Source: Escherichia coli (GTDB lineage Bacteria > Pseudomonadota > Gammaproteobacteria > Enterobacterales > Enterobacteriaceae). From it: 64,000 nt of DNA. Position 1 is the first letter of the stretch; each line of letters begins with the position of its first letter. The stretch is from the NCBI RefSeq assembly GCF_041248615.1, contig NZ_CP158426.1, one strand, 5' to 3'. Made by a program: the position numbers. Shown in pieces: positions 1-3,000 of the stretch.

Positions 1-3000
1 CTTTAGACATTTTTTACACCTTTTTCTGTGCAAGACACTTACCAGTGTGCACAATACTTATGCTTTTCTAAAGCCGGGAATTTTTAAGTTTGATTGATCA
101 ATTGTTAACTTTAAAAGTTACTTTTAACAATCACTTAGACGATCTAAAGCCGCAATTAACATAATATAAGTTGACATGCAAGCACTTTTTACCGTATAGT
201 GCGGGTTTCCTACCTACCCAGGAAATGAGTTCCTACCTACCCAGGAAATGAGTTCCTACAATACTATAATTAAACTACAATTAAACTATCTTTTATAAAT
301 TCTTTTATCTTTTAAAGAATAATTATAGGGATACCCGTTAGGGAGTCTTCGACTATCCCTTAATCTATTGGCATTCGCCAGAACCTTGCACAAGTTAGAC
401 TGATGCTTGTCATAACAGATAGTTTTTGTTTTTTGTTTTTTGTTAGTAGTTAGCTGATCTATGTTCGCTTTCCGCTCACAACGAATATGTAATCTACTAT
501 GTGCAAATAGCCTACGGCTTGCGTATGGCTAATAGTCTTGCGCTGTGCGCAGAACGATAATTAACTAACTACCATCTAACGATTGAAATTTACTTGTGCA
601 ATAACCTGAGCGTAAGCGAATGGTTGTTAGTGTCTATGCGCTGTGCGCTTCAATAGTTCCATTGATGAGGCTTACGCCAATCTAACGATCATCAATCTAT
701 TTAAGAGAAAATCTATTGTGCAATACTCTGACGAGTGCAATAACCTTGTGTGCTACGCGTTAGCGATGTTAGCACATAGACACAGACAACAACCAACAAC
801 AAACAAAAAAGAAAGAATGGTTTTAGTAGTTGAAGGTTAAATAAGTTTCTACCGCTTAAATCAAGCCGTAGGCGAGCTAAACGTATATAAGGTAGGGAAA
901 CACTTAGCGGTAATAGATTAGCTCGTTATAGAGCTTCTGAGGAGCTTTACAGGTATTTTATAAGATGTCTGAAATCAGAGTTTATCTATCCACCATCTTT
1001 CCATCATCTGATAAATCAAAAATAAGCCCCTTAAATAAGCCTCTGACGAGATAAACAACCTCTACATAAGGGAATGTATTGTTTTTATCAAAACCCCCGT
1101 CAGAGTGCGATTGAGAGCGTTTTAGACAACAGGGAAGAATTGTACCAGAGTAGGCAGCACAAAAAGCTAAGAAAAATTATAAGAAATTGAAAATGATCAA
1201 GTTTTTTATAAAAGAGGGTTGACAAAGCCGCCGTTATGTAGTATTGTAAGTAGGGAGGGGAGAAACATCTCTCTCCATCTAAATAATCAAATCACAGAAC
1301 ACTGCACTTTGAGCCGTCAGGCTGCAAGGTGTGTTTTTCTTTTATCTAAATAAGGAGTTTTTTATGAAATGGTATACACCGGAACACGTCGTAGAGGCAT
1401 TTAAAAAAGGTGAGCTAACACGACATCAAGTAAGGATGAACAGGAACACAGCGCGGCGCTGTGGTTATCCAGAGCGTGAAAAATGCTTTGACGATGCACT
1501 AAAAAGGTAATGACTCCAACTTATTGATAGTGTTTTATGTTCAGATAATGCCCGATGACTTTGTCATGCAGCTCCACCGATTTTGAGAACGACAGCGACT
1601 TCCGTCCCAGCCGTGCCAGGTGCTGCCTCAGATTCAGGTTATGCCGCTCAATTCGCTGCGTATATCGCTTGCTGATTACGTGCAGCTTTCCCTTCAGGCG
1701 GGATTCATACAGCGGCCAGCCATCCGTCATCCATATCACCACGTCAAAGGGTGACAGCAGGCTCATAAGACGCCCCAGCGTCGCCATAGTGCGTTCACCG
1801 AATACGTGCGCAACAACCGTCTTCCGGAGCCTGTCATACGCGTAAAACAGCCAGCGCTGGCGCGATTTAGCCCCGACGTATCCCCACTGTTCGTCCATTT
1901 CCGCGCAGACGATGACGTCACTGCCCGGCTGTATGCGCGAGGTTACCGACTGCGGCCTGAGTTTTTTAAATGGCGGAAAATCGTGTTGAGGCCAACGCCC
2001 ATAATGCGGGCGGTTGCCCGGCATCCAACGCCATTCATGGCCATATCAATGATTTTCTGGTGCGTACCGGGTTGAGAAGCGGTGTAAGTGAACTGCAGTT
2101 GCCATGTTTTACGGCAGTGAGAGCAGAGATAGCGCTGATGTCCGGCAGTGCTTTTGCCGTTACGCACCACCCCGTCAGTAGCTGAACAGGAGGGACAGCT
2201 GATAGAAACAGAAGCCACTGGAGCACCTCAAAAACACCATCATACACTAAATCAGTAAGTTGGCAGCATCACCGACAAATGCGCTCAACATAATTAGATG
2301 ACTTTTTATATGTTTGAGGATTTTGTTATTGAAATTCTTTGCGCCACCAATGCTCTCTTTGTATCCCGCATTAACTTTTATGGCAGGTGGGGCATTGTGT
2401 GTATGTGCGTCTGTTGACGAGTTTATTACATGATTTTGTATGTTAATGTCATTATGGATCTTGAATCCTCTTCTCGGCACGGTTGCAATTAGCGAGTGGG
2501 TAGTATCACCAACAGCGCGAAATCCGCGTCTGATAATGGATATGTTCTGATATAACGTGTTAGTAGGCACACGCATACCTTCTTCTTCCCAGACTCTGGT
2601 GAAAAAATCTTGTTGTGCAACCACATCAGGAAAAGCTTCAAGTAGAAGTGATAAACATCGACTGGCTGGCGTTGTCAGAACGACGTTAAGATCGGCGTTA
2701 TGTACCGATATTAATTTTCGGTGCTCAGGCCAGAACTCGATATTATCGTTAATAATCCAGTACATACGTCAATAAACACTAAATCAATCGAAATGGAGAT
2801 CACATAGTTTGCTAAGTATATTGGTATTTACGGCATAAATATATATTAATTTTATATTTATCATGATGATTGAAATGAGGCTTTAATGTTGCAACGTAAA
2901 ACTTTACGTAAATTAACATGGTTAACATTTATGCCACTATTGTTTGTAAATTCATATTTCGTAATGCTTCTGAATTTTTCGTGTGATGGTTTTAAATACT

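What the first reader, a model, noticed from the sequence alone, without database searches (positions are those of the whole stretch)
1219..1510. Promoter and strong RBS driving a 48-codon ORF that terminates inside IS1
A sigma70-like promoter, a consensus RBS (taaggag) and an ATG at 1364 look like a genuine gene start. The frame has no stop before the IS1 boundary, where the IS1 end supplies TAA. This is probably the 5' stump of a gene whose body was removed, and the promoter now reads into IS1 antisense to insB. I do not recognise the product (MKWYTPEHVVEAFKKGELTRHQVRMNRNTARRCGYPEREKCFDDALKR).
Basis: seen in the sequence. Interest (0 to 1): 0.4.

Follow-up and report, generated by a model that had tools for sequence, protein, structure and literature searches.

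The report
IS1-clipped first gene of dead island
The promoter, ribosome-binding site and 48-codon ORF are real, but they are the front end of a naturally tiny (60-codon) gene that opened the early operon of a 13.5-kb phage-like island; an IS1-linked 25.7-kb deletion cut off its last 13 codons and removed everything downstream, so this is ordinary genome decay.

Summary
TTGACA-17-TATTGT lies at 1219-1247, taaggag at 1351-1357 and the ATG at 1364. IS1 starts at 1506 and its terminal repeat supplies the TAA at 1508-1510.

In IS1-free E. coli the ORF is a complete 60-aa protein, so only 13 codons are missing. What was lost is the rest of the unit: 25,715 bp. That covers 8.8 kb of a 13.5-kb glyU-integrated island (replication initiator, capsid-like and tape-measure-like genes, integrase, distal att) plus 16.9 kb of the ETT2 region up to yqeI codon 164. 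IS1 has no target duplication, so this is a deletion or recombination product.

The gene is real: dN/dS is 0.14-0.19, and it belongs to a narrow Enterobacterales family of 56-66 aa three-helix proteins with no known fold or function. It is the first gene after a conserved promoter in all but one of the related islands read.

A hairpin plus T-run lies between promoter and RBS. It is conserved, shows compensatory changes, and is replaced by an unrelated hairpin plus T-run in one relative. I infer a promoter-proximal terminator.

The island family is in 13% of complete E. coli genomes and appears undescribed. The finding itself is ordinary.

The parts
1219..1224 (+). -35 hexamer TTGACA of the early promoter
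   Evidence: Invariant in 7 divergent E. coli copies and in 25 distinct copies. A TTGACA or TTGACT is also present upstream in 5 relatives picked by protein similarity alone.
1242..1247 (+). -10 hexamer TATTGT, 17-nt spacer
   Evidence: Relatives carry TAAAGT, TAATAA, TAGAAT, TAATAT or TACAAT at the same spacing, always TAnnnT.
1254..1280 (+). Leader hairpin 1, directly after the predicted transcription start
   Evidence: MFE and centroid folds. The sequence differs between island types, but a hairpin can be drawn by eye at the same place. RNAalifold did not retain it, so support is weak.
1304..1332 (+). Leader hairpin 2: 12 pairs, one bulged G, GUCA loop
   Evidence: dG -16.9 kcal/mol, z -3.1, 0 of 200 shuffles fold as well. 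Conserved in Escherichia, Klebsiella, Raoultella, Citrobacter, Franconibacter and Erwinia. Compensatory changes occur in L010 (2 pairs) and L137 (1 pair). In L139 it is replaced by an unrelated GC hairpin plus T-run.
1334..1343 (+). T-run TTTTTCTTTT after hairpin 2; together they look like an intrinsic terminator
   Evidence: Read from the sequence. Conserved with the hairpin.
1351..1357 (+). Shine-Dalgarno sequence taaggag
   Evidence: AGGAG or GGAGG is conserved 5-9 nt before the start codon in relatives.
1364..1504 (+). 47 native codons of the 60-codon early gene (WP_000872470.1 family)
   Evidence: Identical to the intact allele up to base 1505. dN/dS 0.14-0.19.
1364..1510 (+). Chimeric ORF as it now stands: 47 native codons, Arg (A|GG), then TAA from IS1
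   Evidence: RefSeq annotates nothing under the match in this strain.
1506..2273 (-). Complete IS1 (768 bp); insA 1943-2218 and insB' 1521-2024 on the minus strand, with an A6C frameshift site
   Evidence: RefSeq annotates it as an IS1B-family transposase with a programmed frameshift. It is the only IS1 copy in the window.
2274..2765 (-). 5' 492 bp (164 codons) of yqeI, the other edge of the deletion
   Evidence: Window 2274 onward matches L003 from 15749 downward. RefSeq marks the gene as a pseudogene lacking its C-terminus.
207..330 (.). Context: probable replication origin of the island. Two exact 23-bp iterons (207-252) are followed by an AT-rich block. It is now orphaned because the initiator gene was deleted.
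   Evidence: Iteron type tracks the N-terminal domain of the initiator across island types.

Best explanation
The window is E. coli NRZ14408, from about position 1,088,001 of the chromosome.

Shown:
- The ORF is the first gene of the rightward early operon of a 13.5-kb integrative, phage-like island. The island sits in the 3' end of tRNA-Gly glyU and is bounded by a 22-bp direct repeat.
- In intact copies the gene encodes a 60-aa three-helix protein. A winged-helix replication initiator follows it, then a string of small genes.
- Further along come a capsid-E-like gene, a tape-measure-like gene and a tyrosine integrase.
- In this strain an IS1 sits after base 142 of the gene. The DNA on its other side is yqeI codon 164.
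- The 25,715 bp that lie between these two points in an IS1-free strain are absent, and IS1 has no target duplication.
- The surviving protein lacks 13 residues of helix 3, including invariant I48 and D50.

Inferred:
- History: IS1 inserted into the AT-rich 3' end of the gene. Either an IS1-mediated adjacent deletion or recombination with a second IS1 copy then removed the DNA. The remnant has lost its initiator, structural genes, integrase and distal att site, so it can neither replicate nor excise.
- Transcription: the promoter fires. Most transcripts end about 90 nt later at the hairpin plus U-run, upstream of the RBS, giving a short leader RNA. In intact islands the operon would be expressed by read-through, probably conditional antitermination. 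Here any read-through translates the clipped 48-aa product and then runs untranslated into IS1, antisense to insB.
- Protein function: unknown. My best guess, at low confidence, is a small early regulator. This rests only on its position, like cro ahead of O in lambda.
For: Strain and intact allele:
- The window is 100% identical to NZ_LT599825.1 across the junction. All other listed genomes stop matching at window base 1505.

Deletion:
- The window flanks map to L003 41465 and 15749, which gives a 25,715-bp deletion.
- The two IS1 flanks, gcactaaaaa and gacaaatgc, share no duplication.

Island boundaries and genes:
- The 22-bp repeat TGGAGCGGGCGAAGGGAATCGA occurs at both island ends, 13,541 bp apart.
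- Gene content: initiator (PHROG replication initiation and O-like families, HTH_36), Phage_cap_E, a tape-measure PHROG and Phage_integrase.
- The neighbour order is kept in E. coli, Klebsiella and metagenome relatives.

The gene is real:
- Homologues of 56-66 aa.
- dN/dS 0.14-0.19.
- AlphaFold2 model with pLDDT 88.9 and three helices.

Promoter and terminator conservation.

IS1 hot spot: a second, independent IS1 sits 3 nt further downstream in the same orientation, again with an adjacent deletion (3.7 kb), in another sample.
Against: - There are no transcription data, so promoter activity, termination and read-through are all inferred from sequence.
- The tool's own terminator scan did not flag hairpin 2, because its bulge breaks the stem rule.
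- The terminator is not universal. Two of five relatives picked by protein alone (L136, L140) have leader hairpins without a T-run.
- No antiterminator candidate was identified.
- Most hairpin copies came from a pattern search that fixed 18 stem bases, so their invariance is partly built in by the search.
- The protein has no Pfam, PHROG or structural match, so the regulator role rests on gene position only.
- I could not tell an adjacent deletion from recombination between two IS1 copies. The search for the right-hand junction was swamped by IS1 hits.
Confidence: 0.8

Rival explanations
1. One reading: the ORF is the 5' stump of a substantially larger gene whose body was deleted.
For: The frame does run without a stop up to the IS1 boundary, and DNA downstream really is deleted.
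Against: The IS1-free allele ends 41 nt past the junction and encodes 60 aa. All full-length homologues are 56-66 aa, including distant ones from other genera.
Confidence: 0.03
2. The functional product of this unit is the roughly 90-nt leader RNA itself, not the ORF. It would be a trans-acting small RNA built from a 5' hairpin, a conserved A/U-rich single-stranded linker and a 3' terminator hairpin with a U-tail. That would make it the one part of the island still intact and possibly active in this strain.
For: The architecture at 1254-1343 matches that of Hfq-type small RNAs (my own knowledge of the class). The linker CTAAATAAT(C/T)AAA is conserved across island types. The promoter, leader and terminator are untouched by IS1. 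By analogy (my own knowledge), short RNAs terminated at lambda tR' and the Stx-phage StxS RNA arise in the same way.
Against: No target and no expression data are available. I found no complementarity to the upstream non-coding region beyond shuffled controls. The ORF is clearly under protein-level selection, so the leader is at most an additional product. Rfam has no match.
Confidence: 0.2
3. Hairpin 2 is not an RNA terminator. It is a palindromic DNA operator bound by a dimeric repressor that blocks elongation from the promoter.
For: The stem sequence is nearly invariant while the loop and flanks vary. It is identical in islands whose proteins are only about 30-45% identical. That pattern suggests sequence-specific recognition.
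Against: The G-U positions and the one-sided bulge are mismatches in a DNA palindrome, yet they are conserved. A T-run always follows on the transcribed strand. In L139 an unrelated GC hairpin plus T-run sits in the same place. The site lies about +50 to +80, an unusual position for an operator. The invariance is partly an artefact of the search pattern.
Confidence: 0.1
4. A simple IS1 insertion into the ORF, with the island otherwise never present downstream in this lineage, so that no deletion took place.
For: None beyond the presence of a complete IS1.
Against: The two flanks lie 25.7 kb apart in an IS1-free genome and include part of the conserved ETT2/yqeI locus. There is no target duplication. 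yqeI is cut mid-gene.
Confidence: 0.01

Closest known systems
IS1 insertion followed by an IS1-mediated adjacent deletion, or recombination between two IS1 copies
   Same: A complete 768-bp IS1 with intact terminal repeats and insAB'. One flank is the insertion site in AT-rich DNA. The other flank is a distant sequence, and there is no target duplication. A second, independent IS1 sits 3 nt away, also with an adjacent deletion.
   Different: Nothing unusual. Which of the two routes produced the deletion could not be decided.
Promoter-proximal terminators of phage operons, such as lambda PR'-tR' (6S RNA, read through by Q) and the Stx-phage StxS RNA
   Same: A strong-looking sigma-70 promoter is followed within about 90 nt by a hairpin plus U-run, upstream of the first gene. 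This implies a constitutive short RNA and conditional read-through. The comparison itself rests on my own knowledge of lambda.
   Different: No Q, N, nut or qut homologue or motif was identified. The leader has no sequence match in 50,697 phage records. The operon is the early/replication one, not the late one. Function is untested.
Lambda cro, by position: PR-cro-cII-O-P
   Same: A small protein of about 60 aa is the first cistron of the early operon. In many copies a second tiny ORF follows, then an O-like or HTH_36 replication initiator.
   Different: No sequence, profile or fold similarity to Cro or any helix-turn-helix family. The predicted fold is a plain three-helix bundle. This is an analogy of position only.
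Phage satellites: P4-like, PICI, cfPICI and PLE
   Same: Small size (11-14 kb). Integration into a tRNA gene, with an integrase next to one att site. Its own initiator plus an iteron and AT-rich origin, as in SaPI/PICI. Only a few structural genes, so it cannot build a virion alone.
   Different: No psu, sid, delta, alpha, AlpA, primase, TerS, portal or protease hits. It carries a tail tape-measure-like gene, a class that SatelliteFinder's cfPICI model forbids (PMC10085698). Its capsid and tape-measure genes are closest to those of virulent rV5-like phages. Helper dependence is untested.

Membership tests
IS1 family insertion sequence | About 768 bp, with roughly 23-bp imperfect terminal inverted repeats | tested here: met
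   1506-2273 is 768 bp. The ends are GGTAATGACTCCAACTTATTGAT and ATCAGTAAGTTGGCAGCATCACC.
IS1 family insertion sequence | insA and insB' ORFs joined by a -1 frameshift at an A6C motif | tested here: met
   ORFs at 1943-2218 and 1521-2024 on the minus strand. The A6C motif is read as TTTTTTAAA on the plus strand at about 1964. RefSeq annotates an IS1B-family transposase with a programmed frameshift.
Simple IS1 transposition event | A direct target-site duplication of 8-11 bp (usually 9) with contiguous flanks | tested here: not met
   The flanks gcactaaaaa and gacaaatgc differ and lie 25,715 bp apart in an IS1-free genome. This is a deletion or recombination derivative.
Intrinsic (Rho-independent) terminator | A stable GC-containing stem-loop immediately followed by a U-run on the transcript | tested here: met
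   Stem 1304-1332 (dG -16.9 kcal/mol, z -3.1), followed by T-run 1334-1343.
Intrinsic (Rho-independent) terminator | Transcripts actually end there | not testable with these tools
   Needs Term-seq, a Northern blot or in vitro transcription.
Sigma-70 promoter | -35 and -10 hexamers at 16-18 bp spacing, conserved among homologues | tested here: met
   TTGACA-17-TATTGT. -35 is invariant and -10 is TAnnnT in 25 distinct copies.
Sigma-70 promoter | A mapped transcription start | not testable with these tools
   No 5'-end data are available.
Cro, Xis or other helix-turn-helix small phage regulators | A recognisable HTH or winged-helix profile or fold | tested here: not met
P4-like satellite | The psu-delta-sid operon, alpA, epsilon and alpha primase, together with an integrase (PMC10085698) | tested here: not met
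   An integrase is present, but no Pfam or PHROG hit to any P4 core protein among 17 island proteins.
cfPICI satellite | Integrase, AlpA-type regulator, primase-replicase, its own capsid module (major capsid protein, protease, portal, connectors) and TerS. Tail genes are forbidden in the model (PMC10085698). | tested here: not met
   A major capsid protein (Phage_cap_E) and an integrase are present. No portal, protease, TerS or AlpA was detected, and a tape-measure-like tail gene is present.
Phage satellite in general | Induced, packaged and transferred only with a helper phage | not testable with these tools
   Needs infection experiments. The only lead is homology of two structural genes to rV5-like phages.
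WP_000872470.1 small-protein family (unnamed) | 56-66 aa with the conserved core MK(W/Y)F...G...R...NRN.AR..GY.ERE..F..AL.I.D | tested here: met
   Residues 1-47 are identical to the intact allele. Alignment A4 gives 11 invariant columns. The window copy lacks invariant I48 and D50.

The most novel reading that the evidence does not exclude
The remnant may belong to an undescribed class of 11-14-kb tRNA-integrating elements of Enterobacterales. The family is present in 706 of 5,426 complete E. coli genomes and also occurs in Klebsiella, Raoultella, Citrobacter, Franconibacter and Erwinia.

Each element carries:
- its own iteron origin and matching initiator;
- a capsid protein and a tape-measure protein whose nearest phage relatives belong to virulent rV5-like myoviruses (Phapecoctavirus and Justusliebigvirus);
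- a 1.5-2.4-kb modular, hairpin-rich non-coding region.

On this reading they are satellites of virulent phages. Their early operon would be gated by the conserved promoter-proximal terminator found here, and the short leader RNA, still intact in this strain, might have a function of its own.
Probability: 0.3. Interest if true: 0.7.

Novelty: new member of a known kind. Interest (0 to 1): 0.3.

Why it matters
For this window it matters little. It explains an unannotated ORF as collateral damage of an IS1-linked deletion. That deletion also removed most of the ETT2 type III secretion locus in NRZ14408 and froze a mobile island in place.

It also corrects the idea that a large gene was lost: the gene was always tiny.

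The wider value is as a pointer. The clipped gene and its leader mark the control region of a common but apparently uncharacterised island family. That family has a conserved leader terminator, an initiator-specific origin, and structural genes related to virulent phages. If these islands prove to be satellites of lytic rV5-like phages, they would be relevant to phage therapy, because rV5-like phages are widely used against E. coli and Klebsiella.

Tried and rejected
- Rfam at E<=1 on the whole non-coding region, leader and ORF: no match.
- Pfam and PHROG on the 60-aa protein: nothing meaningful.
- tblastn of the protein and blastn of the leader against 50,697 phage records: no match.
- The 2.2-kb non-coding region against the same phage records: no match.
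- Trans base-pairing between the leader and the upstream region, as with P4 CI RNA: no better than shuffled controls. Rejected.
- An invertible segment driven by the neighbouring DNA invertase: the apparently inverted gene in L008 is an unrelated cargo gene. Rejected.
- Homology of the 123-aa protein to the rV5-like head-decoration protein: none.
- Search for the IS1/yqeI junction in other genomes, to tell deletion from recombination: swamped by IS1 hits and joined pieces, uninformative.
- Literature searches for the island, its proteins, its sequences and rV5 satellites: nothing specific. One preprint only lists a 'GI-glyU' island.
- RNAalifold on the 600-nt upstream module: the sequences are too similar for statistics, with only 3 covarying pairs.
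Full report
**Where the window comes from**

Bases 900-1520 of the window are 100% identical to E. coli NRZ14408 chromosome NZ_LT599825.1, positions 1,088,900-1,089,520. The next-best genomes are also 100% identical, but they stop matching at window base 1505. So the window starts at about position 1,088,001 of that chromosome. Base 1505/1506 is a strain-specific junction. Any complete genome sharing it at 97.6% identity or better would have ranked above the second hit, and none of the 5,426 did.

**Checking the observation**

- TTGACA at 1219-1224, a 17-nt spacer, and TATTGT at 1242-1247.
- taaggag at 1351-1357 and ATG at 1364.
- An open frame running to TAA at 1508-1510.

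IS1 occupies exactly 1506-2273 (768 bp). It has canonical terminal repeats and carries insA and insB' on the minus strand. RefSeq annotates it as an intact IS1B-family transposase with a programmed frameshift. Codon 48 is chimeric (A from the gene, GG from IS1, giving Arg), and the stop codon lies inside the IS1 terminal repeat.

Taken alone the promoter match is not above chance: 3 sites were found and 3.1 are expected from shuffles. The comparative evidence below is what makes it credible.

**What the ORF really is**

In strain 2015C-3101 the same DNA continues for 41 more bases. It encodes a complete 60-aa protein, MKWYTPEHVVEAFKKGELTRHQVRMNRNTARRCGYPEREKCFDDALKIIDELRKAEAEKE (WP_000872470.1). 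So 47 of 60 native codons survive.

Evidence that it is a genuine gene:
- Homologues are all 56-66 aa. They occur in Escherichia, and more distantly in Klebsiella, Raoultella, Citrobacter, Franconibacter and Erwinia.
- A profile search of 1.84 billion cluster representatives found only 33 at E<=0.001, so the family is narrow.
- Pairwise dN/dS against five divergent E. coli copies is 0.14-0.19, with dS of 0.7-1.1.
- AlphaFold2 predicts three helices (residues 6-15, 20-33 and 36-59) at mean pLDDT 88.9.

No Pfam, PHROG, PDB or BFVD match gives a function. The IS1 cut removes the last 13 residues of helix 3, including invariant I48 and D50. RefSeq annotates nothing under the match in this strain.

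**What was lost**

The left flank (window 1-1505) maps to L003 42969-41465. The right flank (window 2274 onward) maps to L003 15749 and downward. NRZ14408 therefore lacks 25,715 bp relative to 2015C-3101.

The right flank is yqeI cut after 492 bp, and RefSeq marks it as a pseudogene lacking its C-terminus. The two IS1 flanks share no target duplication. The structure is therefore a deletion or recombination product, not a simple insertion.

The missing DNA has two parts:
- 8.8 kb of a mobile island.
- 16.9 kb of chromosome: a GH15 gene and most of the ETT2 type III secretion cluster.

**The island**

In the intact strain the island is bounded by a 22-bp direct repeat of the 3' end of tRNA-Gly glyU. 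The two copies are 13,541 bp apart. Reading from glyU, the order is:
- two cargo genes;
- a DNA invertase;
- about 2.4 kb with no annotated gene;
- the 60-aa gene;
- a winged-helix, O-like replication initiator;
- seven small ORFs;
- a second non-coding gap;
- three more genes, including a Phage_cap_E-type capsid protein;
- a 613-aa protein matching a tape-measure PHROG;
- a tyrosine integrase next to the distal att site.

The same order recurs in divergent E. coli copies, in Klebsiella and in metagenome contigs. A blastn search finds the promoter and ORF region in 706 of 5,426 complete E. coli genomes, with up to three copies per genome.

What remains in NRZ14408 has lost its initiator, structural genes, integrase and distal att site. 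It is an immobile remnant.

**The promoter and leader**

Across 25 distinct copies the -35 hexamer is invariant TTGACA. The -10 is always TAnnnT at 17-18 bp spacing.

Between the predicted start (about 1254) and the RBS lie two hairpins. The second (1304-1332) has 12 pairs, one bulged G and dG -16.9 kcal/mol. Its z-score is -3.1 and none of 200 shuffles folds as well. The run TTTTTCTTTT follows directly.

The tool's terminator scan missed it because the bulge breaks its stem rule.

The stem is nearly invariant, even in islands whose protein is only 30-45% identical, while the loop varies. Part of that invariance was imposed by my search pattern.

To remove that bias I took five relatives chosen by protein similarity alone:
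- Two keep the hairpin. One of these (L137) has a compensatory U-A to A-U swap.
- One (L139) carries an unrelated GC hairpin plus T-run at the same place.
- Two (L136, L140) have hairpins without a T-run.

L010 shows two further compensatory pairs. Replacement by a non-homologous hairpin plus T-run is the strongest argument that the selected function is intrinsic termination.

I infer, without transcription data, that the promoter makes mostly a leader RNA of about 90 nt. The operon would then be expressed by read-through. In this strain any read-through yields the clipped 48-aa product and then enters IS1 antisense to insB. From established knowledge of IS1 polarity, untranslated transcripts there are likely to be ended by Rho.

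**An IS1 hot spot**

One homologue (P0007, ending ...ALKIR) comes from an unrelated sequencing run. There IS1, in the same orientation, sits 3 nt further downstream (…AAAAATTA|GGTAATGAC). It is again followed by a deletion, this time 3.7 kb. The A/T-rich 3' end of this gene is therefore a repeated IS1 target.

**The upstream region (outside the finding)**

Window 207-252 holds two exact 23-bp repeats, followed by a conserved AT-rich block. Other island types carry different repeats at the same place (TAACAGAAAACTGTTA, GTAACGAnnCGTTAC, GGTAGGTCACTGTGAGCTAGGGG). The repeat type tracks the N-terminal domain of the initiator. This is the signature of an iteron origin with a matching initiator.

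Window 330-960 is modular. Units of 80-120 nt are gained and lost between copies. It contains hairpins that keep their shape in two completely different sequence versions, and one hairpin with a GUAA loop flanked by G-A pairs. Whether these act in RNA or in single-stranded DNA is open. Rfam and the phage records give no match.

**Comparison with known systems**

The IS1 event is textbook. The island is none of the described satellite families:
- It has no P4 core genes.
- It has no portal, protease, TerS or AlpA.
- It carries a tail gene, which the cfPICI model forbids.

Its capsid protein (about 25% identity over the full length) and its 613-aa protein (about 30% identity over 380 aa) have their best phage matches in the same group. 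These are virulent rV5-like Phapecoctavirus and Justusliebigvirus phages, where the homologues are annotated as the major head and tape-measure proteins. That is a lead towards a satellite of virulent phages, not a demonstration. I found no paper describing the family.

**Verdict**

- Observation: confirmed.
- Interpretation: partly supported. The gene is truncated, but it was naturally tiny. The operon and island were lost, not the body of a large gene.
- The finding itself is ordinary IS1-driven decay: interest 0.3, a new member of a known kind.
- The most novel reading still open is that the control region belongs to an undescribed satellite-like island family with a terminator-gated early operon (probability about 0.3).

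Noticed in passing
window 207-330: Two exact tandem 23-bp repeats (TTCCTACCTACCCAGGAAATGAG) are followed by a conserved AT-rich block. Other island types carry different repeats at the same spot, and the repeat type matches the N-terminal domain of the initiator protein. This is probably the island's replication origin, now orphaned because the initiator gene was deleted.
   Followed up: yes
window 330-960: A modular non-coding region. Units of about 80-120 nt are present or absent between copies. The motif TTGTGCAATA recurs about five times. One hairpin keeps its architecture in two unrelated sequence versions, and another has a GUAA loop flanked by G-A pairs. There is no Rfam or phage match, and whether it acts in RNA or single-stranded DNA is unknown.
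   Followed up: partly
window 172-206: A strong promoter-like site (TTGACA-18-TATAGT) points rightward into the iterons. It is absent from the other island types examined.
   Followed up: partly
L050 830-1742 (Logan SRR27874573): An independent IS1, in the same orientation, is inserted 3 nt downstream of the position seen in the window. It is also followed by an adjacent deletion, of 3.7 kb. The 3' end of the small gene is a repeated IS1 target.
   Followed up: yes
window 2274-2765: yqeI is cut after codon 164 by the same IS1. NRZ14408 has therefore lost yqeJ, yqeK, ygeF-ygeI and the whole ETT2 secretion apparatus region.
   Followed up: yes
L003 32696-46258 (strain 2015C-3101): The intact island is 13.5 kb long and is bounded by a 22-bp direct repeat of the glyU 3' end. 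Its capsid and 613-aa proteins are closest to the major head and tape-measure proteins of virulent rV5-like phages. It may be an undescribed satellite family.
   Followed up: partly
L001 9216-10093: A second gene-free gap of about 880 bp inside the intact island. It has two promoter-like sites (9195-9263) and a strong terminator-like hairpin (10014-10046), so it may be another non-coding transcription unit. It is deleted in the window strain.
   Followed up: no
L008 606-1157; L010 921-1481: The DNA invertase next to the non-coding region is not universal. One copy has a secreted cargo protein in its place and another has a small tyrosine recombinase. The left arm of the island is a variable cargo slot.
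   Followed up: partly
window 43583-43879: Three tandem tRNA-Met (CAT) genes on the minus strand. This is ordinary chromosomal context.
   Followed up: no
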